Sequence record: MT446396.1
Length of the DNA: 64,000 nt
Reading direction: 5' to 3' (one strand)
DNA from: Escherichia virus TH22
In this document: in pieces, positions 1,466 through 24,730 of the stretch
Position numbering within the stretch: the stretch's first letter is position 1
Layout of the letters: each line of letters opens with the position of its first letter
Made by a program: the position numbers and the translations under genes
Notes under the pieces: model-generated
Told to the model about the DNA's origin: nothing
The model's database searches: none
The model's input: only the letters and a program-made list of their open reading frames with translations

Positions 1466-2337
1466 AGTGGTACCCTATTTTTTCTTGGGGCTGGCGGTGC
1501 TGGGTCAACCGGTACAGGAATATCCTGCGAATATGTTTGAACAGATTCACCTTGCCAGTCTTCTTGGTCGACGTCTCGTGGAACAGCTTCCGAGTCAACA
1601 GATTCGAAATTGCCCTCCGGTGCAAGCTCTCTGGAATTTGCAAAGAAGTCAAGATAGATAGTACGGATTTCCCCGGCTACTTCCTTGACCGGTGGATATA
1701 ACCAACCGTTAACTTCGAACATAATGGACCATTCGAGTCTACGACGAGTCATTGCATCACCTTCAATTTGCTCATCCATTGCTATGGACTGCAATACGAT
1801 TCTTATATCACGTTCGAACGTAATTTCATTCGTATAAAGTTCAGTGATGGTTGTATTAAAATGTGGCTGGAAGTAAGGCATGATTTGTTCGATAATCTGG
1901 AACATATCATCTTGATGCCTTGTATATATTCCAAGCTCGAAAATCATTTTGACCGGTACAGGAGAATATTGAGATATCTGCTTGCGAGGGTCGTTATTAG
2001 CAAATCGCGCCTGTGTGTGATTCTGGAGAGCCGTTTTATATTGCCCATTATACATCAAGTCAACCATATGTAGGTTCATACGGGGCAATATGGTCTCGAT
2101 TTTAGCCTTCTGAGCAGCACGTTCTTGTGGTGACATGTCAGGAGTCGGTGTATTCTGAATAGCGGTCCATTTTCCAAGCTGCATCATGAATTTTTCTTTT
2201 GAAGCATAAGAAATAGGGACCTTAATATATTTAAGTCCAGTGTCTTCTCTGGTTCTGGCCACTTGTACATGGGAAAATAAATCGCCCATTAAAACGATAT
2301 AGCGACGCAGAGACGAATTATAAAAATGCCCAAACAA
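1462..2337 (-). CDS. 15: Tail sheath stabilizer/tail completion protein gp15
   Basis: 291-aa ORF between gp14 and gp16 as in T4; overlaps gp16 start by 4 nt. Confidence 0.8.
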
Positions 2338-2349
2338 AGTAACCTCCAG

Positions 2350-2366
2350 GCGCCCAGTTCGGGCGC
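2350..2366 (-). promoter_or_regulatory. Intercistronic GC hairpin between genes 14 and 15
   Basis: Perfect inverted repeat GCGCCC-N5-GGGCGC followed by GGAGG RBS of gene 15; no U-run, so more likely a stabilising/processing structure than a terminator. Confidence 0.3.
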
Positions 2367-2380
2367 ATTAATAAATGTAT

Positions 2381-3166
2381 TTATTCATCAAAGAAACTAT
2401 CGTCAAAGCTATCCTGTTTTGCCTTAGGTGGAGCCTCAAGTCCACGACCATTCTGCACAAAATATGGTTTAACATATTCAGCTGCTTCTGCGTTAATCTC
2501 ATTGGATTCAGCATAAGGGATATCGCTGATATCTGTAAGACCATCGATATTGTGGATTGGTTGTAAATCGAGCTCACTGAATTCTGGAATATTAATACCT
2601 TCATTTCGTTGCAATTCGGGTTTAAGCTCTTCTCCGGAGTAAATGTATTTGCTCGCGGTGATTTTACGGATAGCATTTTGACCTACCTGATAGAATGGGT
2701 CATAAGGTTGCACCCATGTAATTTCGAACAGGCTGTTATCAAGAGGGAAATAAATCAAATCCCCGGCAATAGGTTCAGTTCCATTGCATTGGTGTTTAAA
2801 CAGATTAGGGTTAATGGATATTGTAATTTCATCGTTCACAGTCATACCGAATTTACTAAAGATAGAACCATCACCCTGATATGCATCGAACGTATCCAGA
2901 TATCCAGCAAATTTCCATGCTTTATCAAATTTACTCTGGAGGTCTTCACCAAATAACAAATCCGGTTTAACGAATTGCCTTGGGATATAATAAAGAGACA
3001 TTCCGCGCATCTGAATACTTTCAGCAACAATAGCATCGGCTAAAGTCTGGGTATTTTCATGATGCATAAAGTTTACATAAGGGTTCAATATCTCTGTAGC
3101 ATTGGTATTGTCATACCCGGTCCCGTCTTCGAGCCGGGCGAATAATCTTGCGTCATAAGTAGCCAT
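2381..3166 (-). CDS. 14: Neck protein gp14
   Basis: 261-aa ORF, size and position (13-14-15) match T4 gp14 (~256 aa). Confidence 0.8.
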
Positions 3167-4104
3167 TAGCCCACCAATATAGGAGTCGGTGCATCCAGCA
3201 GGTCAAGTTCCTCACGAAGACGTTCTTTTTCCATACGAGCTTCTTCAATTAAACGAACACCATCAACCGTGGTACCACCTGGCATCATCATCCCCTGGTG
3301 TTTAGCCAATACGTTGCCGTTAACTTCCTTAACGAGCGCCGTGGCATAGTCTTTCACCCAACGGTTGTTGTATGCGCCATCTTGAAGTCCAAGGTCCTCA
3401 CCTGCTCTCATGCCGCTTATTCTGCGTGCCGGGTTATCCCACTGTGCGCCAGCATTCCACGGATTATCACAATCGGCCGAAGCAAAACCATATCCAGCTG
3501 TATTACCTACCATTGAATCCACGCCGTTATACGATTTGGTATAAACTTCAATTACAATCACATCTCCCTGACGGAAGTTGCCCATAATTTTAAGTTGTTC
3601 AGTATCGTCATTATACCAGTAATCCGGAAGCGGAACCATCAGGTCTTGCATCATTGAACGATATTGCATAAGCTGTGTAAAATAACCAAGGTCTGCACCA
3701 AAAGCATTTGGACCAAAGCTGTTACATGAGCTACCCATTCCACCGTTAATCCCGGCCAGTCCCAGAACAAAATCTGTGAACCATGGATATGTAGCTTGAC
3801 CATCCATCGAAGTTAATGAACCGACGTTAGTACGAATAATCTGCGTTACTGCAAAAATATTACGGCCTTTTAAATCGAAAACACCATCGCGAAATTTCTG
3901 TTGTGAAACGTCATCATGACCGATATAAAAAGCCTGATAACCTTTGTTATAACCATTATAATGATATTCGCCATATAATTCTAATGCACGCTGGATGCAA
4001 TCATAGACCTGTTCGGTCGTAACTTCGATATTCGTAATTGGAGCACCAAGACGTCGAAGGATTGCATCTTTTAATTGTTTCGGGTTGTATGATTCAGTTG
4101 CCAT
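3166..4104 (-). CDS. 13: Neck protein gp13
   Basis: 312-aa ORF downstream of wac as in T4 (gp13 ~309 aa); stop overlaps gene 14 start. Confidence 0.8.
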
Positions 4105-17653: not shown

Positions 17654-19396
17654 TTAGCCAATGTCAATCCTCGAACCATCAATAGTATATTGACCAGATG
17701 CAATAGAACTCATTGAAGCCATAGTCTCGGACCAAGCACCTGCACAAGTCCAAGATACGGTACCATTTACAGTCCAGTTTAAATTACCATTAGTCGTGCG
17801 AGTTTCATTACCTTCTACTAAGGTAGTCGCATCACCCTTAACAGTAACATCAGCATTTCCTTCAACAATAACAGTAACGTTGCCTTTAACTCTGAGTGTT
17901 CCATTACCTTCTACAGTTTTCTCTTCGTTACCACGAATATGGATGGTTTCGTTTCCATCGGTCTGACGACGAACGTTAGCCATATTGTAATAGGTTTCAT
18001 CACCACCAACGTTGACTTTATTATTCCCACCAACATAAGTGCTTGAATCGCCCTGGGTCATATAATAGCCATCGGCTACCGTCTTCGAAGTCTTACGACC
18101 ATCTGGTGCAACTTCCTCATAGGAACCGGTCGGATGAATCAGTCGATAACGTTCTTGTCCTGGAGTGTTATCAAATTCCTGAATATGACCGCCTTCAGTT
18201 TGCATTGTCTGCACGTAAGGATATTCACCTTTGTAACTTGATTCTGGCTCTTTAAATAGAATCCTCGTATCTTCTGGAGTCCACGGGTCGGCCGGGTCGG
18301 AATTTGTAGGGGCCACAAAGGTTTGAATCATCCTGTATGAACGCCCTTTAAATGACCTTTCTTTAGGGGCCATAATACCATATGATTCCATGTTACCTGT
18401 GAGGATAATCATTGATACCCTTGATGCACGGCCTTTAGTTTGGTTAAACCATACAGAATCACGAGCGGCATCAAATGCTTTCTTATAATCTCCGGCTAAC
18501 ATTGCAGCGAGCATCGTTTTAAATTTAGCAAGTCCACCTAATCCCATTTGGAAAGCCATGTTTTCAAGAGCCATTTGTCTTGAACGGTTTTCTTTATTGT
18601 AAACCGGACCTACAACACTATGTCTACCTATATCATTTTGGACTTTTTTAAGGTCTTCTTGGAATAACTTAGAAGCCTCGTCCATTGATATTGCACCAGG
18701 GTTACCTTTAACTTCACGGCCTATTTGATTGGATAATATTTTGTTTATCTGATTCATATCTCTAATAGGTTGTGGTGTAATTAAGTGTCCTATACCTATA
18801 GTAGGATAACCTTCAGTGTCCCAATATACTTTCAGACGAAGACCTTCATCGCGGTGAAGCATGTTTTCTATTGTGAAATTAGGATTATCATCAGGCTTAA
18901 CTTGGCTTAAATCTAACCCGTCTGGATTAATACCTACATCAGTGTTTGCATCTTGTATTACGTTTGAAGTGTCATCATAACCGACCTCACCGCCTCGGTT
19001 AAGCGCAGCAGCATCATTGCCCACATAAAGCGGATATTGCCCTGTGGGGTCACTAAAACCTTCTGTTGTGTTTGCCTTCTGTCTTGATGCTGAGCCATAT
19101 GTACCAAGGACTAATCCATTGAGCTTCCACTTGTCCAAAAAGTGACCATATACTTGAGTACCCGGGACCATACCAGTCATGGCAGTTTGAATACCGGAAA
19201 CCGATGCAGATGATGTTGGCATCAATACAGACATCCAGGGCAGGTCTTCAGTTCTGATACCTTTTACAGGCCCTTGCGATTTCTCATATGGATGCATACC
19301 CCATACACGAACACGAACACGACCTTGTTGAAGTGGGTCCATTCGGTCTTCGACAACACCGACGAACCAACTTACACTATCTGACATATTAATCAT
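17654..19396 (-). CDS. 5: Baseplate hub and tail lysozyme gp5
   Basis: 580 aa; internal T4-lysozyme-like segment (YWDTEGYPTIGIGHLI) and C-terminal beta-helix VxGxxxV repeats (VKGNVTVIVEGNADVTVKGDATTLVEGN) as in T4 gp5. Confidence 0.9.
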   Translation of the reverse strand: MINMSDSVSWFVGVVEDRMDPLQQGRVRVRVWGMHPYEKSQGPVKGIRTEDLPWMSVLMPTSSASVSGIQTAMTGMVPGTQVYGHFLDKWKLNGLVLGTYGSASRQKANTTEGFSDPTGQYPLYVGNDAAALNRGGEVGYDDTSNVIQDANTDVGINPDGLDLSQVKPDDNPNFTIENMLHRDEGLRLKVYWDTEGYPTIGIGHLITPQPIRDMNQINKILSNQIGREVKGNPGAISMDEASKLFQEDLKKVQNDIGRHSVVGPVYNKENRSRQMALENMAFQMGLGGLAKFKTMLAAMLAGDYKKAFDAARDSVWFNQTKGRASRVSMIILTGNMESYGIMAPKERSFKGRSYRMIQTFVAPTNSDPADPWTPEDTRILFKEPESSYKGEYPYVQTMQTEGGHIQEFDNTPGQERYRLIHPTGSYEEVAPDGRKTSKTVADGYYMTQGDSSTYVGGNNKVNVGGDETYYNMANVRRQTDGNETIHIRGNEEKTVEGNGTLRVKGNVTVIVEGNADVTVKGDATTLVEGNETRTTNGNLNWTVNGTVSWTCAGAWSETMASMSSIASGQYTIDGSRIDIG

Positions 19397-19995
19397 AGCG
19401 CCTTCTCCATCTCGCGGATTAATGCCGAAATAAATGATTCGATATCATTAGGGTCGATTATCTTTATTTCTCGTTTATATTCATTTTTGCGAATAGCATC
19501 TTCGTAGATATCCACTGCAGCTAATGGGCCTTCATACTGTGGGTATAATTTGTTCTTATCACCTTTATCATACCATGTGTATGGATTATCAGGATAAGAA
19601 ACAAGATTCCAGAATTTTTCACCATCTTCATTTACATGATAAAGAACCTGATTACCACCTATATTCGAATAGCGTTGAATTGATGCCTGATATGATGATT
19701 CTTGTGAACATATCCAACCATAATACGGGTCATAGATATTATTAAGCATAAGGAGAACCCAATAGAGTTGAGTATTACCATAGAGCTGATATGCAAGTTC
19801 TTCAGGTCTCGGAGCTCCGGCGATGTAATATGTTTTCGGTGTATAATTAACCGCGACCTTATCAAAATATGCACGATAGTTTCTGAAGATGTCAGTCATT
19901 GGGATGCTTAAGACATCTTCTTTCGTTAATGATGCCGAGTTTTTTCTGATTGTTTTAGCATCATAATCAATTGGGTTAAAAAATGAAAAAAGCAT
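19393..19995 (-). CDS. 53: Baseplate wedge protein gp53
   Basis: 200 aa (T4 gp53 ~196 aa), first gene of the minus-strand late operon, overlapping gene 5 start. Confidence 0.85.
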   Translation of the reverse strand: MLFSFFNPIDYDAKTIRKNSASLTKEDVLSIPMTDIFRNYRAYFDKVAVNYTPKTYYIAGAPRPEELAYQLYGNTQLYWVLLMLNNIYDPYYGWICSQESSYQASIQRYSNIGGNQVLYHVNEDGEKFWNLVSYPDNPYTWYDKGDKNKLYPQYEGPLAAVDIYEDAIRKNEYKREIKIIDPNDIESFISALIREMEKAL

Positions 19996-20035
19996 AAAGC
20001 CTCCATTTACAATATGGTTTAAGTATGATATACTC

Positions 20036-20047
20036 TATTTATAAATA
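20036..20047. promoter_or_regulatory. Divergent overlapping late promoters (TATTTATAAATA)
   Basis: TATTTATAAATA contains TATAAATA on both strands: minus copy faces gene 53, plus copy lies ~20 nt upstream of the ATG at 20066. Confidence 0.55.
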
Positions 20048-20065
20048 CATATGAGGAAAATATAA

Positions 20066-20773
20066 ATGAACTATCTAAAACATTACAATAACTTAATCCA
20101 ACGAGCTAAAAATCGAGCACCCATTGATGGTTACAAAGAGAAACATCACATTATTCCAAGATGTATGGGCGGATTAGATACTGATGAAAATTTAGTCGAG
20201 CTTACCGCTCCTGAACATTTTGTCGCCCACCTGTTATTGGTTAAAATTTATCCAGATAATCACTCGTTAGCACATGCTGCGAAAATTCTAATGGGTTCCA
20301 ACAATTACAATAACAAACAATTTGAATGGGTGCGCATCCGCGCTGTTGAGACTTCCATTAAGTTTCACACTGGACGTAAACGTTCAAAACAAACATGTGA
20401 AAATATTTCAAAAGCTCTTAAAGGTAAGAAATATGGCCCGCGCTCTGAAGAGCATTGCAAAAAGTTGTCAGAAGCAGCAAAGGGTAAAAAGTTCTCTGAA
20501 GAACATTGTAAGAAATTATCAGAAAGAGTGTTTACAGATGATTGGCGAGCAAAAATATCCAAGGCAAATAAAGAAAGAGTTTTGGTAAATCATAGCGAGA
20601 AAATAAAGCAAGGTATTACTGATGATGTCAGAAAACGTTTATCAGAGCTTAATAAAAATGCTCCCCGTCACACCTGTGAACACTGTGGAAAAATAACAAA
20701 TCCAGGCAACTATAAACGTTGGCATGGTGAAAATTGTAAGGTACTTAAAAATGGCGTACTCCGGGAAGTTTAA
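20066..20773 (+). CDS. Free-standing HNH homing endonuclease (mob-like) with repeated basic nucleic-acid-binding motifs
   Basis: N-terminal HNH signature EKHHIIPRCMGG...ENLVELTAPEHFVAHLL; repeated KKxSE(E)HCKKLSE motifs; stop overlaps gene 4 start. Confidence 0.8.
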   Translation: MNYLKHYNNLIQRAKNRAPIDGYKEKHHIIPRCMGGLDTDENLVELTAPEHFVAHLLLVKIYPDNHSLAHAAKILMGSNNYNNKQFEWVRIRAVETSIKFHTGRKRSKQTCENISKALKGKKYGPRSEEHCKKLSEAAKGKKFSEEHCKKLSERVFTDDWRAKISKANKERVLVNHSEKIKQGITDDVRKRLSELNKNAPRHTCEHCGKITNPGNYKRWHGENCKVLKNGVLREV

Positions 20774-21200
20774 ACCAACAAATCTAGAAAAATATAAAGG
20801 TGATTGGAAGAAAATACAGTACAGGTCGAGTTGGGAGGCATATATGTTCAAGTGGCTCGACACTCACCCCAATGTTGTTCAATGGGGTTCTGAGACTGTT
20901 GTTATTCCATATTTTAGCAATGCTGATGGCAAAAAGCGCCGTTACTATATGGATATATGGTGTAAATTTGATACCGGCCAGCAATTTTTTATTGAAATAA
21001 AACCATTCAAAGAAACACAGCCCCCAAAAATTCCTGTAAATAATACAGCAGCCAGTAAGAAACGTTATATAAACGAAATGTACACTTATTCTGTGAACAG
21101 GGATAAGTGGAAAGCTGCACAAGCTACCGCAGATAAAATGGGTATTACATTTCGCATTCTAACCGAAAACGGCCTGAAAAAATTAGGATGGAAAGGATGA
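20751..21200 (+). CDS. 4: Head completion protein gp4
   Basis: Start at MAYSGKF gives 149 aa (T4 gp4 ~150 aa); T4 order 53/4/2/3. Confidence 0.8.
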
Positions 21201-22024
21201 GTATTTTTACATTTATCAATGAATCTGCAGATAAACCAGGTCCGAAACCCAGTAAATCAGAACAACAATGGGTTGAGATAGGGGTTGAATTTTATACAGC
21301 AAAAGAAAAAGGAATGACCTCGAAGAAGTTTGCTGAAGAGAAAGGAATCAACTATTCGACCTTTACCAAAAGCATGTCGAGGTATCATTCAAGAATTCAG
21401 ACTGCTTATAAAGTATCCAAGCTCAAAAAGAAACCTGCTGGTAAACTTACGAAGGCTGAACGCCAGCTGATAATGGTGAATAGCTTTAGGAAGAGCATAA
21501 GAGATAAGATTGCTAACGAAGGCGCTGCAAGCAACACCAAATCTGCCAGATGGTTCGCAGAGACAATTAAGAAATCAGTTCGCGGCCACGTAACGGCTAA
21601 ACCTCAACCAGGTAAACTTTATGCTTATATCTATGATGCAAAGCATAAGGATACTCTTCCATACTGGGACAAATATCCGTTAATCATTTATCTTGGTCTA
21701 GGTAAGCATAATTTGATGTACGGTTTGAACTTGCACTATATTCCACCGAAGGCACGTCAAGAGTTCCTTGAGGAACTTCTTAAGCAATATGCTAATACTC
21801 CTACGATTACAAACAAGACTCATCTGAAGATTGATTGGTCAAAGGTGAAGGGATTTAAAGGGGCTGACCAGATGATTAAAGCATATATACCCGGCAATAT
21901 AAAAGGTACTATCACTGAAATCAAGCCCAGCGACTGGGCAAATGTGGTATTACTCCCCCTTCAGCAGTTTTTTTCAAAAGGCAAAAGATATTCTTCCCAG
22001 AAAGTATGGAGAAATTCACTTTGA
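21197..22024 (+). CDS. 2: DNA end protector protein gp2
   Basis: Start at MSIFTF (ATGA overlap with gene 4 stop) gives 275 aa (T4 gp2 ~274 aa); in-frame alternative start at 21188. Confidence 0.8.
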
Positions 22025-22680
22025 ATTATCAGTTTATATATTCATCGTTAATTGAAAGGGCCTGTAACAGGGTCCTGATTTCATATAAAGAATCTCATCA
22101 CATCATTCCGAAATGTATGGGTGGTTCAAATGACCCAGATAATCTGGTCGATTTGACTCCTGAGGAACATTATGTAGCCCATCAACTATTGGTTAAAATA
22201 TATCCTACAAATCCAGGTTTAAGTTTTGCTGCTACATCCATGTGCCAGTCAAGCAAGTATTTGAAACGCAATAATAAATTATTTGGTTGGTTAAGACGTA
22301 GACACGCTGACAATATTTCTAAAAGTCAAACCGGTAAAGTTTACTTTAATAATGGTGTCAAATCGATAAAACTATTTCCATGGGAAAATATTCCGGATGG
22401 GTTTGTCAAAGGAAGACATTACAGTCCAACCAAGGGTACAAAACATTCTCGCAATAATGGTCATTTTAAAAATAAAGAGATTCAGGATGAATTGAGAAAG
22501 CGCCGGTGGGAAAAAGATAGGCAAGAAATGTGTAAAAACTTCGGAGTTGATACCGTCGAGCAAGCTCGAGAGTTGGTCTTAGCATATAAAAAGGAATTGC
22601 ATCCTCGATACTGGGTAAAGCCAATGTTGGAACGTTATCCGTTTATGACTAAGCTAAGACTTAACACATTAATAAAATAA
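22006..22680 (+). CDS. Free-standing HNH homing endonuclease (second copy, paralog of 20066)
   Basis: HNH signature [12 protein letters not shown]...[23 protein letters not shown] closely parallels the 20066 protein; start overlaps gene 2 end. Confidence 0.8.
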
Positions 22681-22765
22681 TCTATTATCGGTCAGTGTTA
22701 TTGGTAAGGACAAAAGGTCTAGAACCATTATAACACTGATTGTTTTAAAGCAAACAAGGTGCATT

Positions 22766-23365
22766 ATGTCAGGTTTATATAATCAAACTAACACGACTAA
22801 CTTTATATTAGAGGTAAGCGATTCAAACCTCACACAGACCTTTAAACTCAACGTTCAAGACGTTACCCTCCCAGGGGTTCACATCCCTGTGACAGATGTT
22901 CCTGGGGGAACACAAGGTATAAATCGCTCCAGTCTTCCTGGTAGTACAATAGAATTCGACCCACTGATTGTTAACTTTCTGTGTGACAAAGACCTAAGAG
23001 CATGGCTTGACATTTATAAATGGATGCTCTCGCTCAACAACTACATCACACACGAATCAAAAGCATGGCATCCGAAGGGTCGTCCCGAAGCGGTCACGCT
23101 TCATATCTTAGATAACAACAAGGACAAAATTGTCATGTCAATCCATTACTATGGAGCATGGCCGTCCGACCTGTCAGAGATTCAGTATTCATATAAAGAA
23201 GATTCTGACCCGGCTATCAATGCAACAGCAACTTTTAACTTTAAGTCTTTTGCTGTAGAAATTGATGGTATAATAATAGAAGGTAGACCACAGATTGATA
23301 GTAATGCAGCAATGCAACAGGAAATCAGGTCTAAGTCAATGCATCCATCTATGAGAAACGTATGA
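22766..23365 (+). CDS. 3: Tail completion/sheath stabilizer protein gp3 (by synteny)
   Basis: 199-aa ORF between genes 2 and 1 as in T4; no motif I can name, so assignment is positional. Confidence 0.65.
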   Translation: MSGLYNQTNTTNFILEVSDSNLTQTFKLNVQDVTLPGVHIPVTDVPGGTQGINRSSLPGSTIEFDPLIVNFLCDKDLRAWLDIYKWMLSLNNYITHESKAWHPKGRPEAVTLHILDNNKDKIVMSIHYYGAWPSDLSEIQYSYKEDSDPAINATATFNFKSFAVEIDGIIIEGRPQIDSNAAMQQEIRSKSMHPSMRNV

Positions 23366-24038
23366 AATTAATTGCGATTGTGGGTAAAAAACGCAGTGGT
23401 AAAGATACGACTGCTGATTATGTTATTAGTCAAAACGGAACAAAGTGGCAGCTTGCAGGTCCGATTAAAGAAGCGCTTTATAAAGCGTGGATTCGTCAAG
23501 ACCTGCCACACAATTTGACCCTGGAAAATTTTGATGGACAAGGTTATGACCGTGAAAAAACCTTGATAATGAACAACACCGAAGCTTATATTCTTCTGGT
23601 TGATGCTCTTGAATGGTTGAAACAACAATACAATCTTGACCTTCCGAATCCAGATATGGTTCGTAAAATCATTGAATTTCACACACTAAATAATGTTGAG
23701 CCCTGGACAGTTAGACGTTTCATGCAGACCCTTGGAACTGACATCGTTTGTACAGAGTTCGACAGCATGTTTTGGATTAAAACTTTTGCGTGCGATTATC
23801 TTGACAACCTCTATTCTGGATATAAATATTACGTTGTCCCAGATGTTCGTCAAAAGAACGAACTTGATTCGCTTCGGGCGATGGGTGCTACAATAATCTT
23901 TGTAGAGCGCGATGAAGCAAATCATTCTACTGATACACACATTACGGAAGCTGGACTTCCACCACTAGCTAGTGACATTGTTATTAAAAACGATGGCACA
24001 CTCGAAGAACTTTTTGATAAAATTAATAAGGTAATATA

Positions 24039-24039
<1 letters not shown>
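23362..24039 (+). CDS. 1: Deoxynucleoside monophosphate kinase gp1
   Basis: N-terminus MKLIAIVGKKRSGKDTTADYV...YQLAGPIKEALYKAW matches T4 gp1 P-loop region. Confidence 0.9.

Positions 24040-24730
<691 letters not shown>

What the first reader, a model, noticed from the sequence alone, without database searches (positions are those of the whole stretch)
20066..22680. Two paralogous free-standing HNH homing endonuclease genes in the gene 4-2-3 module
HNH endonuclease ORFs sit (i) between the divergent late promoter and gene 4 and (ii) between genes 2 and 3, each overlapping its neighbour by a few codons. Both share ...HHIIP(R/K)CMGG...NLV(E/D)LT(A/P)(P/E)EH(F/Y)VAH(L/Q)LLVKIYP. Insertions of this kind are typically absent from close relatives and mark recent mobile-element invasion; gene 4 here must be read through from the endonuclease transcript.
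Basis: partly seen in the sequence, partly recalled or inferred. Interest (0 to 1): 0.5.

Follow-up and report, generated by a model that had tools for sequence, protein, structure and literature searches.

The report
Two homing-endonuclease genes flanking phage genes 4-2
Two selfish "homing endonuclease" genes have inserted on either side of the head-completion genes 4 and 2 of a T4-like coliphage and carried short stretches of foreign neighbouring DNA in with them; this is real and well documented here, but it is an ordinary, well-known kind of mobile element in such phages.

Summary
The window is a Gaprivervirus, a T4-type coliphage 99.9% identical to UPEC07 and TH55. It carries two intact HNH endonuclease ORFs: HNH-1 (20066-20773) between genes 53 and 4, and HNH-2 (22006 or 22021 to 22680) between genes 2 and 3.

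- **Relationship:** they share only the N-terminal ~100-aa HNH domain (45% identity). Each is closer (57-64%, full length) to genes at the same position in other phage genera. They are family members, not a recent duplication.
- **Polymorphism:** close relatives show all four states (both, either one, neither).
- **Linked tracts:** against the nearest endonuclease-free relative (ECML-359) the backbone differs by about 1%. Gene 4 beside HNH-1 differs by 22% and the last 65 nt of gene 2 beside HNH-2 by 25%. The only other HNH-1 carrier has the same gene 4 allele on a different backbone.
- **Promoter:** the HNH-1 block replaced the resident 53|4 promoter with its own palindromic late promoter, so gene 4 is probably transcribed through HNH-1.
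- **Selection:** both ORFs are under purifying selection.

Verdict: free-standing Mob-like homing endonuclease genes with linked conversion tracts, a textbook phenomenon already annotated as such in GenBank. Cleavage activity and targets are untested. Low interest.

The parts
20010..20065 (+). Leader of the HNH-1 block, replacing 33 nt of the resident 53|4 intergenic region. It holds a sigma-70-like promoter (TTTACA at 20006-20011, 17-nt spacer, TGaTATACT ending at 20034). It also holds the palindrome TATTTATAAATA (20036-20047), which reads as late promoter TATAAATA on both strands, and the Shine-Dalgarno GAGG at 20053-20056.
   Evidence: Alignment with empty alleles; sequence; promoter scans. 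The promoters are consensus matches only; no transcript data were available.
20066..20773 (+). HNH-1, a 235-aa free-standing HNH endonuclease gene. Domains: N-terminal HNH (H27 H28 N42 H51 H55), NUMOD3-type repeats (about residues 103-170) and a C-terminal CxxC...H...C zinc-finger-like motif (C204 C207 H220 C224). Its last 23 nt overlap gene 4. Its Cys-Lys codons TGTAAGG supply the AAGG ribosome-binding site of gene 4.
   Evidence: pN/pS of 0.03 against the phage 212 copy. About 40% full-length identity to the endonuclease gene next to nrdA (the mobE position) in T6 and JEP6. AF2 model pLDDT 89.
20751..21200 (+). Gene 4 (head completion protein). This is a divergent allele inherited together with HNH-1. 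The tract of high divergence runs from the ATG to about 21180.
   Evidence: 94/430 differences from ECML-359 against 15/1409 in the left flank. Only 6/430 differences from phage 212, whose left flank differs at 145/1409. The nearest other gene 4 in 50,697 phage records is 78.7% identical. Pfam PF08722.
21197..22024 (+). Gene 2 (DNA end protector). The body is of ordinary backbone type. The insertion changes its end from ...RNS-TAA to ...RNSL-TGA.
   Evidence: 9/760 differences from ECML-359.
21941..22005 (+). Variant 3' end of gene 2 linked to HNH-2 (16 substitutions in 65 nt, 3 amino-acid changes). This is the candidate conversion tract and the candidate cleavage-resistant target region.
   Evidence: all five carriers of the window-type HNH-2 have this haplotype. 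Most empty alleles have another haplotype. RZ (empty) also has it, and TH40 has it in part. The target role is inferred, not shown.
22018..22677 (+). The 659-bp HNH-2 insertion (22018-22676 or 22019-22677, a 1-nt ambiguity), lying between the last sense codon and the stop codon of gene 2. The HNH-2 ORF runs from 22006 (ATG already present in empty alleles) or 22021 (TTG, where homology to all relatives begins; GGAG at 22008-22011) to 22680. It ends on the original TAA stop of gene 2.
   Evidence: Junction alignment; gap block. All homologues start MNY, corresponding to residue 6. PHROG 655. Invariant H31 H32 N46 H55 H59. pN/pS 0.11-0.16. AF2 pLDDT 87.

Best explanation
Both ORFs are free-standing homing endonuclease genes of the T-even 'Mob' type: an N-terminal HNH nuclease fused to a lineage-specific C-terminal DNA-binding region.

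Proposed mechanism:
1. Each gene is transcribed late. HNH-1 uses the late promoter it brought with it. HNH-2 is read through from genes 4-2.
2. In a mixed infection with a related phage that lacks the gene, the enzyme nicks or cuts a conserved sequence close to its own insertion point. The likely locations are within or next to gene 4 for HNH-1 and within the last ~65 nt of gene 2 for HNH-2.
3. The break is repaired by T4-type recombination using the endonuclease-carrying genome as template. This copies the endonuclease gene and the adjacent DNA into the recipient.
4. The carrier's own allele differs at the target and is presumably not cut.

For HNH-1 the unit that moves is a block of about 1.17 kb (20010 to about 21180). 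It comprises the bidirectional late promoter, HNH-1 and a divergent gene 4 allele. It is bounded by conserved gene 53 and gene 2 sequence, which can serve as the homology arms.

Shown here: nuclease-family membership by sequence, exact junctions, presence/absence polymorphism, tracts of linked flanking divergence, purifying selection, and the same positions being occupied in other genera.

Inferred: cleavage activity, target sites, immunity of the carrier allele, and transcription of gene 4 through HNH-1.
For: **Family**
- PHROG 655 'homing endonuclease', E=7e-61 and 7e-57.
- NUMOD3 above the Pfam cut-off in HNH-1.
- Invariant HH...N...H...H columns in 34-sequence alignments. The motif aligns to the HNH sites of McrA, pyocin AP41 and a group II intron maturase.
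- HNH-1 is about 40% identical over 96% of its length to the endonuclease gene beside nrdA in T6 and JEP6. HNH-2 is 49.5% identical over its N-terminal domain to T4 mobB.

**Mobility signature**
- All four presence/absence states occur among close relatives.
- The 2|3 insertion is a clean 659-bp indel between the last codon and the stop of gene 2.
- Against ECML-359 the differences are: left flank 15/1409, gene 4 94/430, gene 2 body 9/760, last 65 nt of gene 2 16/65, gene 3 region 6/685.
- Phage 212 shares the gene 4 allele (6/430 differences) on a 10%-divergent backbone (145/1409).
- Genes at the same positions occur in other genera: Providencia PSTRCR_121 (both sites), Klebsiella phiKp_22 (53|4), Escherichia Elenatom (2|3) and Acinetobacter Konradin (2|3).

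**Function retained**
- pN/pS is 0.03 for HNH-1 and 0.11-0.16 for HNH-2.

**Literature**
[quoted passage not shown] Overlaps with the upstream ORF, displaced promoters and co-conversion are typical of T4 seg and mob genes (PMC2988022).
Against: - No cleavage, nicking or inheritance data exist for either protein, so current activity is not shown. T4 itself carries a defunct endonuclease, I-TevIII (PMC2790892).
- Pfam HNH is below its gathering score for both proteins.
- The link between the gene 2 haplotype and HNH-2 is imperfect. RZ has the haplotype without the gene. VR7 has a divergent HNH-2 variant on another haplotype.
- The relatives compared are not independent samples.
- The divergent gene 4 allele could in principle have been exchanged by ordinary recombination, with HNH-1 as a passenger.
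Confidence: 0.85

Rival explanations
1. The two genes are inactive relics. They were once mobile endonuclease genes but no longer cut, and they persist only because deleting them would damage neighbouring essential genes (the gene 4 promoter and ribosome-binding site; the gene 2 stop).
For: HNH-1 supplies the only recognisable late promoter and the AAGG ribosome-binding site for gene 4. The HNH-2 insertion rewrites the end of gene 2. Embedded essential signals are known to favour retention, and defunct endonucleases exist in T4 (PMC2988022; PMC2790892).
Against: Both ORFs are full length with every invariant catalytic and zinc-finger residue intact. Synonymous changes far outnumber non-synonymous ones, with pN/pS 0.03 and 0.11-0.16. 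A decaying gene would not show this pattern.
Confidence: 0.1
2. They are domesticated accessory nucleases working with gp4 and gp2 in head completion or DNA-end handling, like the HNH proteins that assist terminases in cos phages, rather than mobile elements.
For: They flank two DNA-packaging and head-completion genes. gp4 itself has a TnsA-like nuclease fold, PF08722.
Against: Most close relatives, with about 99% identical flanks, lack one or both genes and are viable isolates. Homologues sit next to unrelated genes (nrdA, topoisomerase, helicase) in other phages.
Confidence: 0.03
3. HNH-1 and HNH-2 act together as the two ends of a 'HEG island' that mobilises genes 4 and 2 as a single cargo (the model of Barth et al. 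2023).
For: The arrangement (endonuclease, gene 4, gene 2, endonuclease) matches the published description (PMC10448857). The same double arrangement occurs in Providencia phage PSTRCR_121.
Against: The body of gene 2 is of ordinary backbone type (9/760 differences from ECML-359), so it did not travel with either endonuclease gene. Phage 212 carries only the HNH-1 plus gene 4 block, and VR25, VR7, P479 and fPSFA carry only HNH-2. The two tracts therefore segregate independently.
Confidence: 0.15

Closest known systems
Phage T4 MobE (and MobA): free-standing HNH homing endonucleases of T-even phages
   Same: - N-terminal HNH domain followed by NUMOD3-type repeats and a C-terminal DNA-binding region.
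- Intergenic position between conserved essential genes.
- ORF overlaps with neighbouring genes.
- Sporadic distribution among relatives, with linked flanking conversion tracts.
- HNH-1 is about 40% identical over its full length to the endonuclease gene beside nrdA in T6 and JEP6.
   Different: - The insertion sites (53|4 and 2|3) are not among the T4 sites listed in PMC2988022.
- Nicking and biased inheritance are demonstrated for MobE and MobA but untested here.
- HNH-1 brings its own late promoter, whereas mobE is described as a promoter-less cassette.
Phage T4 MobB
   Same: The HNH domain of HNH-2 is 49.5% identical to it. The VR7 and VR25 annotators named their copies 'similar to T4 MobB'. 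MobB likewise has a promoter in the upstream non-coding region (PMC2988022).
   Different: - Similarity is limited to the N-terminal ~100 aa; the C-terminal region is different.
- The genomic site differs (alpha-gt region in T4).
- MobB activity and target are themselves unknown.
'HEG islands' (Barth, Dunham & Seed 2023, PMC10448857)
   Same: Essential genes are bracketed by endonuclease genes. The endonuclease at a given site varies between relatives: HNH, GIY-YIG and a third family occur at the four junctions of the 5-53-4-2-3 module. DNA-binding domains are shuffled between nuclease classes.
   Different: The segment between the two genes is not co-inherited as one island here. Only gene 4, and separately the last 65 nt of gene 2, track their adjacent endonuclease gene.
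T4 SegG / SegF intronless homing with co-conversion (marker exclusion)
   Same: The proposed genetic outcome is the same: localised replacement of the recipient's flanking markers, with a tract extending from a cleavage site near, but not at, the insertion point (PMC2988022).
   Different: Those enzymes are GIY-YIG enzymes that make double-strand breaks. HNH enzymes of this type are reported to nick.

Membership tests
HNH (beta-beta-alpha-metal) nuclease superfamily | Catalytic motif: general-base His on strand 1, structural Asn, and metal-binding His/Asn on the helix | tested here: met
   H27/H28, N42, H51 and H55 (HNH-1) and H31/H32, N46, H55 and H59 (HNH-2) are invariant in 34-sequence alignments. 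The motif aligns to the HNH sites of McrA, pyocin AP41 and a group II intron maturase.
HNH (beta-beta-alpha-metal) nuclease superfamily | Match to the curated Pfam HNH model (PF01844) above its gathering score | tested here: not met
   HNH-2 scores 20.4 bits against a 21.4-bit cut-off; HNH-1 scores 13.9 bits. PHROG 655 'homing endonuclease' matches strongly, E=7e-61 and 7e-57, so the shortfall reflects the generic Pfam model.
HNH (beta-beta-alpha-metal) nuclease superfamily | Beta-beta-alpha fold | tested here: inconclusive
T-even Mob-type free-standing homing endonuclease genes | HNH domain fused to a distinct C-terminal DNA-binding region | tested here: met
   HNH-1 has NUMOD3 at 21.3 bits against a 20.4-bit cut-off, plus a conserved CxxC...H...C motif. 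HNH-2 has an unrelated, conserved C-terminal half: a beta-hairpin YFNNG followed by four helices. DNA binding itself was not tested.
T-even Mob-type free-standing homing endonuclease genes | Own ORF between conserved genes (not in an intron or intein), present in some close relatives and absent from others, with an intact empty site | tested here: met
   Four presence/absence states with exact junctions.
T-even Mob-type free-standing homing endonuclease genes | Co-conversion of flanking markers with the endonuclease gene | tested here: met
   The evidence is comparative only. Divergence is 22-25% in the tracts next to each gene against about 1% elsewhere (versus ECML-359). The gene 4 allele is shared with phage 212 on a different backbone.
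T-even Mob-type free-standing homing endonuclease genes | Site-specific nicking or cleavage of the endonuclease-free allele, with the carrier allele resistant | not testable with these tools
   Needs enzyme assays on ECML-359 or VR20 DNA compared with window-type DNA.
T-even Mob-type free-standing homing endonuclease genes | Biased (super-Mendelian) inheritance in mixed infection, dependent on the nuclease | not testable with these tools
   Needs phage crosses.
HEG island (Barth et al. 2023) | The whole segment bracketed by two endonuclease genes is inherited as one highly conserved unit across otherwise diverged phages | tested here: not met
   The gene 2 body follows the backbone (9/760 differences from ECML-359). 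The two endonuclease genes occur separately in phage 212 and in VR25, VR7, P479 and fPSFA.
Terminase-associated / structural-module HNH accessory proteins | Conserved in all members of the phage group and required for packaging | tested here: not met
   Absent from most Gaprivervirus isolates.

The most novel reading that the evidence does not exclude
HNH-1 is part of a co-adapted, self-sufficient replacement cassette rather than a simple insertion. The cassette holds a bidirectional late promoter serving genes 53 and 4, the endonuclease, and a cleavage-resistant allele of essential gene 4 whose ribosome-binding site is encoded by the endonuclease's conserved Cys-Lys codons. It overwrites the resident promoter and gene 4 in one step. 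In other Gapriverviruses a GIY-YIG endonuclease on the other side of gene 4 carries a related DNA-binding module and its own gene 4 allele. Gene 4 would then be a contested target of rival endonucleases, each spreading its own allele.
Probability: 0.4. Interest if true: 0.4.

Novelty: new member of a known kind. Interest (0 to 1): 0.22.

Why it matters
It matters little as a discovery. Free-standing HNH and GIY-YIG homing endonuclease genes are a textbook feature of T4-like phages. These very ORFs are already labelled 'homing endonuclease' or 'putative mobile endonuclease' in GenBank (UPEC07, VR7, VR25).

The locus is nevertheless a clean natural example:
- The window and ECML-359 are almost isogenic except for two endonuclease-linked tracts. 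They would make an unusually tidy pair for measuring HNH-type homing, co-conversion tract length and marker exclusion in a non-T4 system.
- The four junctions of the 5-53-4-2-3 module are each polymorphic for a different endonuclease gene. This makes the module a convenient place to study competition between homing elements.
- For annotation and phage engineering, gene 4 probably depends on the promoter and ribosome-binding site supplied by HNH-1. The gene 4 start in some records is also mis-called.

Tried and rejected
1. **PDB sequence search.** Both proteins gave only marginal hits (E 0.09-1) to HNH motifs of McrA, pyocin AP41 and a group II maturase. No I-HmuI-like structure was retrieved.
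3. **Internal promoter for gene 4.** No TATAAATA with up to one mismatch lies inside HNH-1 beyond its start codon, and there is no MotA-box pattern. One weak sigma-70-like match (9/12, at 20220-20247) is no better than chance: 15 sites found against 12.7 expected.
4. **RNA hairpin sequestering the HNH-1 ribosome-binding site, as for I-TevI.** The leader 20040-20110 is unstructured, with minimum free energy 0 kcal/mol. Rejected.
5. **Donor of the divergent gene 4 allele.** Nothing closer than 78.7% exists outside the HNH-1 carriers in 50,697 phage records, so the donor lineage is unsampled.
6. **Other copies in the window.** tblastn finds only the two.
7. **Literature.** No paper characterising endonucleases at the 53|4 or 2|3 sites was found. 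One search failed on a too-short term.
8. **Recent intragenomic duplication.** Rejected. The two genes share 45% identity over the N-terminal domain only, and each has closer full-length positional counterparts in other genera.
Full report
**What the window is.** Megablast of 19300-23500 finds 99.9% identity over the full length to Escherichia phages UPEC07 and TH55. It finds 90-98% identity to about thirty other records of the genus Gaprivervirus (VR7/SP18-like T4-type coliphages, Straboviridae). The ORF map is:

| Feature | Coordinates | Strand |
|---|---|---|
| gp5 | 17654-19396 | - |
| gp53 | 19393-19995 | - |
| HNH-1 | 20066-20773 | + |
| gp4 | 20751-21200 | + |
| gp2 | 21197-22024 | + |
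| HNH-2 | 22006-22680 | + |
| gp3 | 22766-23365 | + |
| gp1 | 23362-24039 | + |

Sources are the ORF list, Pfam (PF11246 for gp53, PF08722 for gp4, PF06841 for gp3, PF21448 for gp1) and the UPEC07 annotation. UPEC07 already labels both extra ORFs 'homing endonuclease'.

- The two proteins share the quoted motif and align at 45% identity over about 137 residues (E=7e-31). Beyond that their C-terminal halves are unrelated.
- Pfam is weak: NUMOD3 just above its cut-off in HNH-1, and HNH just below its cut-off in HNH-2.
- Both proteins match PHROG 655 'homing endonuclease' at E about 1e-57 to 1e-61.
- Alignments with 33 homologues each show invariant HH...N...H...H columns. HNH-1 also has a conserved C-terminal CxxC...H...C motif.
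- AF2 models are confident (pLDDT 89 and 87) and put a strand-strand-helix unit around the motif. Structure-database matches to HNH nucleases were weak, so I count the fold test as inconclusive.

**Junctions at the 2|3 site.**
- Empty alleles read ...GAGAAATTC-ATAATCTATT....
- The window has a 659-bp insertion between the last sense codon (TCA) and the TAA stop of gene 2.
- gp2 thereby gains one Leu and a new TGA stop.
- HNH-2 ends on the old gp2 TAA.
- Homology of HNH-2 to all relatives begins at TTG 22021 (they all start MNY-), preceded by GGAG at 22008-22011 in native gene 2 sequence. The ATG at 22006 already exists in empty alleles. Either start is possible, and the two differ by five residues.

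**Junctions at the 53|4 site.**
- This event is a replacement, not a pure insertion. Thirty-three nt of the 48-nt resident intergenic region, including its TATAAATA, are replaced by 20010-20748.
- The incoming leader carries the palindrome TATTTATAAATA, a perfect late promoter on both strands at 20036-20047. It also carries a sigma-70-like TTTACA-17-TGaTATACT.
- HNH-1 runs 23 nt into gene 4.
- The conserved Cys-Lys codons TGTAAGG at its end provide the AAGG ribosome-binding site of gene 4. The same arrangement is seen in Klebsiella phiKp_22 and Providencia PSTRCR_121.
- No late promoter (up to one mismatch) or MotA-type promoter lies between the HNH-1 start and gene 4.

**Presence/absence among 19 aligned Gapriverviruses**.

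| State | Phages |
|---|---|
| Both genes | window, UPEC07 (TH55 also; it was not in the 19-phage alignment) |
| Only the 53\|4 gene | phage 212 |
| Only the 2\|3 gene | VR25, VR7, P479, fPSFA |
| Neither | ECML-359, VR20, VR26, SP18, UPEC01, CJ20, TH40, TH54, P896, P8, RZ, PSD2001 |

**Linked flanking tracts.** This is the most informative result. Differences between the window and ECML-359, its closest endonuclease-free backbone:

| Segment | Differences | Percent |
|---|---|---|
| Left flank | 15/1409 | 1.1% |
| Gene 4 | 94/430 | 22% |
| Gene 2 body | 9/760 | 1.2% |
| Last 65 nt of gene 2 | 16/65 | 25% |
| 2\|3 spacer plus gene 3 | 6/685 | 0.9% |
| Gene 1 | 2/674 | 0.3% |

- Phage 212, the only other HNH-1 lineage, has the same gene 4 allele (6/430 differences) on a left flank that differs at 145/1409.
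- Gene 4 comes in three allele classes. One is tied to HNH-1. One is tied to the endonuclease genes that other relatives carry at the 4|2 junction. One occurs in phages empty at both sites.
- The HNH-1-linked gene 4 allele has no closer relative than 78.7% in 50,697 phage records. Its synonymous divergence from the common allele is near saturation (pS 0.69). It therefore came from an unsampled, more distant lineage.
- The gene 2 3' haplotype is found in all five carriers of the window-type HNH-2. It is also found in RZ, which has an empty site. That could reflect loss of the endonuclease gene or a resistant allele without it.
- These patterns are what homing with co-conversion predicts (PMC2988022). 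They place the likely targets in or next to gene 4 and in the last ~65 nt of gene 2. That placement is inference.

**Are the genes functional?**
- pN/pS is 0.03 for HNH-1 (window versus 212; pS 0.21) and 0.11-0.16 for HNH-2 (versus VR25, P479, fPSFA).
- This argues for proteins under selection rather than relics.
- It also shows that the lineages are not very young.

**Wider distribution.**
- tblastn finds over a thousand phage records with related HNH domains.
- Full-length relatives sit at the same positions in other genera:

| Phage | Genus | Arrangement |
|---|---|---|
| Providencia PSTRCR_121 | Gualtarvirus | 53-HEG-4-2-HEG-3 |
| Klebsiella phiKp_22 | Jiaodavirus | 53-HEG-4 |
| Escherichia Elenatom | not given in the record | 2-HEG-3 |
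| Acinetobacter Konradin | Lazarusvirus | 4-HEG-2-HEG-3 |

- The two genes are therefore members of two position-specific lineages, not a local duplication.
- HNH-1 is about 40% identical over its full length to the endonuclease gene beside nrdA (the mobE position) in T6 and JEP6. HNH-2 resembles T4 mobB only in the nuclease domain.

**Comparison with known systems.**
- Every feature seen here is described for T4 seg and mob genes. These features are overlap with the upstream ORF, displaced or supplied promoters, sporadic distribution, co-conversion and marker exclusion. MobA and MobE are reported to nick their targets and to be inherited at high frequency (PMC2988022; PMC2790892).
- The bracketing of genes 4-2 resembles the 'HEG islands' of Barth et al. 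(PMC10448857). However, the gene 2 body follows the backbone and the two genes occur separately in relatives. The island-as-one-unit criterion is therefore not met here.

**Verdict.** The genes are real, correctly interpreted and ordinary. They are new, uncharacterised members of the Mob-like HNH homing endonuclease family, at insertion sites not present in T4 and already annotated as such in public records. The added value of this check is threefold: the exact anatomy, the finding that HNH-1 travels with a promoter and a foreign gene 4 allele, and the identification of a near-isogenic empty partner (ECML-359) for experiments.

Noticed in passing
Relatives: L005 (P479) 1594-2229(-) and 3332-3979(+); L006 (fPSFA) 2299-3027(+); also P8, RZ, PSD2001, P896: Two further junctions of the same module are polymorphic for other endonuclease genes. 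GIY-YIG/NUMOD3 (Seg-like) genes occur at 5|53 and 4|2, and a third family (phrog_681, treble-clef zinc finger) occurs at 4|2. All four junctions of 5-53-4-2-3 are therefore endonuclease-gene hotspots in Gapriverviruses.
   Followed up: partly
window 20372-20749 versus L005 3332-3979: The C-terminal DNA-binding half of HNH-1 is 34% identical (E=1e-11) to the C-terminal half of the GIY-YIG endonuclease that sits on the other side of gene 4 in P479. The same DNA-binding module is thus joined to two different nuclease domains, both next to gene 4. They may share a target; this was not tested.
   Followed up: no
window 22689-22742: A stable hairpin (13-bp outer stem CGGUCAGUGUUAU/AUAACACUGAUUG; minimum free energy -23.9 kcal/mol, z=-3.7, 0 of 200 shuffles as stable) followed by UUGUUUU lies in the gene 2|3 spacer. 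It is conserved in all relatives with or without HNH-2. It may be a terminator or an RNA-processing or stability element upstream of gene 3.
   Followed up: partly
window 22057-22076: A terminator-like GC-rich hairpin (AGGGCCUGUAACAGGGUCCU followed by GAUUUCAUAU) lies in the 5' end of the HNH-2 coding region. Pairing is kept in the other carriers (for example P479 has GGGCCC/GGGCCC). T4 mobE and segF are reported to have internal terminators in the same relative position (PMC2988022). The local fold is not significant on its own (z=-0.84).
   Followed up: partly
window 20006-20034: A sigma-70-like promoter with an extended -10 (TTTACA, 17-nt spacer, TGaTATACT; 10/12 matches) sits just upstream of the late promoter in the HNH-1 leader. 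If it is used, HNH-1 and gene 4, normally a late gene, could also be transcribed early. This is a consensus match only.
   Followed up: no
window about 24101-24300 (end of 57A / start of 57B): Relatives fall into two sharply different allele classes here: 28-47% against 1-7% divergence from the window per 100 nt. No endonuclease gene is present at this spot in the sequences examined. Similar dimorphic patches occur in gp5 (17801-17900, and 18301-18800 in VR25 and VR7).
   Followed up: no
window 20724-20750; L001 (UPEC07) 2925; L002 (phage 212) 3045: Public annotations disagree on the gene 4 start: UPEC07 starts 27 nt upstream and phage 212 starts 93 nt downstream. Homology with all relatives begins at the ATG at 20751. 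In phage 212, gp53 is annotated only as a misc_feature 'similar to baseplate wedge subunit'.
   Followed up: partly
window 22063: The only protein difference between the window's HNH-2 and that of UPEC07 is Cys20 in place of Arg (TGT versus CGT). The position is variable in the family. It lies in the stem of the hairpin noted above, where C-G becomes U-G.
   Followed up: no
window 20066-20600 versus L002: There is a mosaic boundary inside HNH-1. Between the window and phage 212 the first ~540 nt differ by 3-10% per 100 nt, whereas the last ~170 nt and gene 4 are nearly identical. In VR7 the middle of HNH-2 is 13-33% divergent from the window while both ends match. Recombination therefore also occurs within the endonuclease genes.
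   Followed up: no
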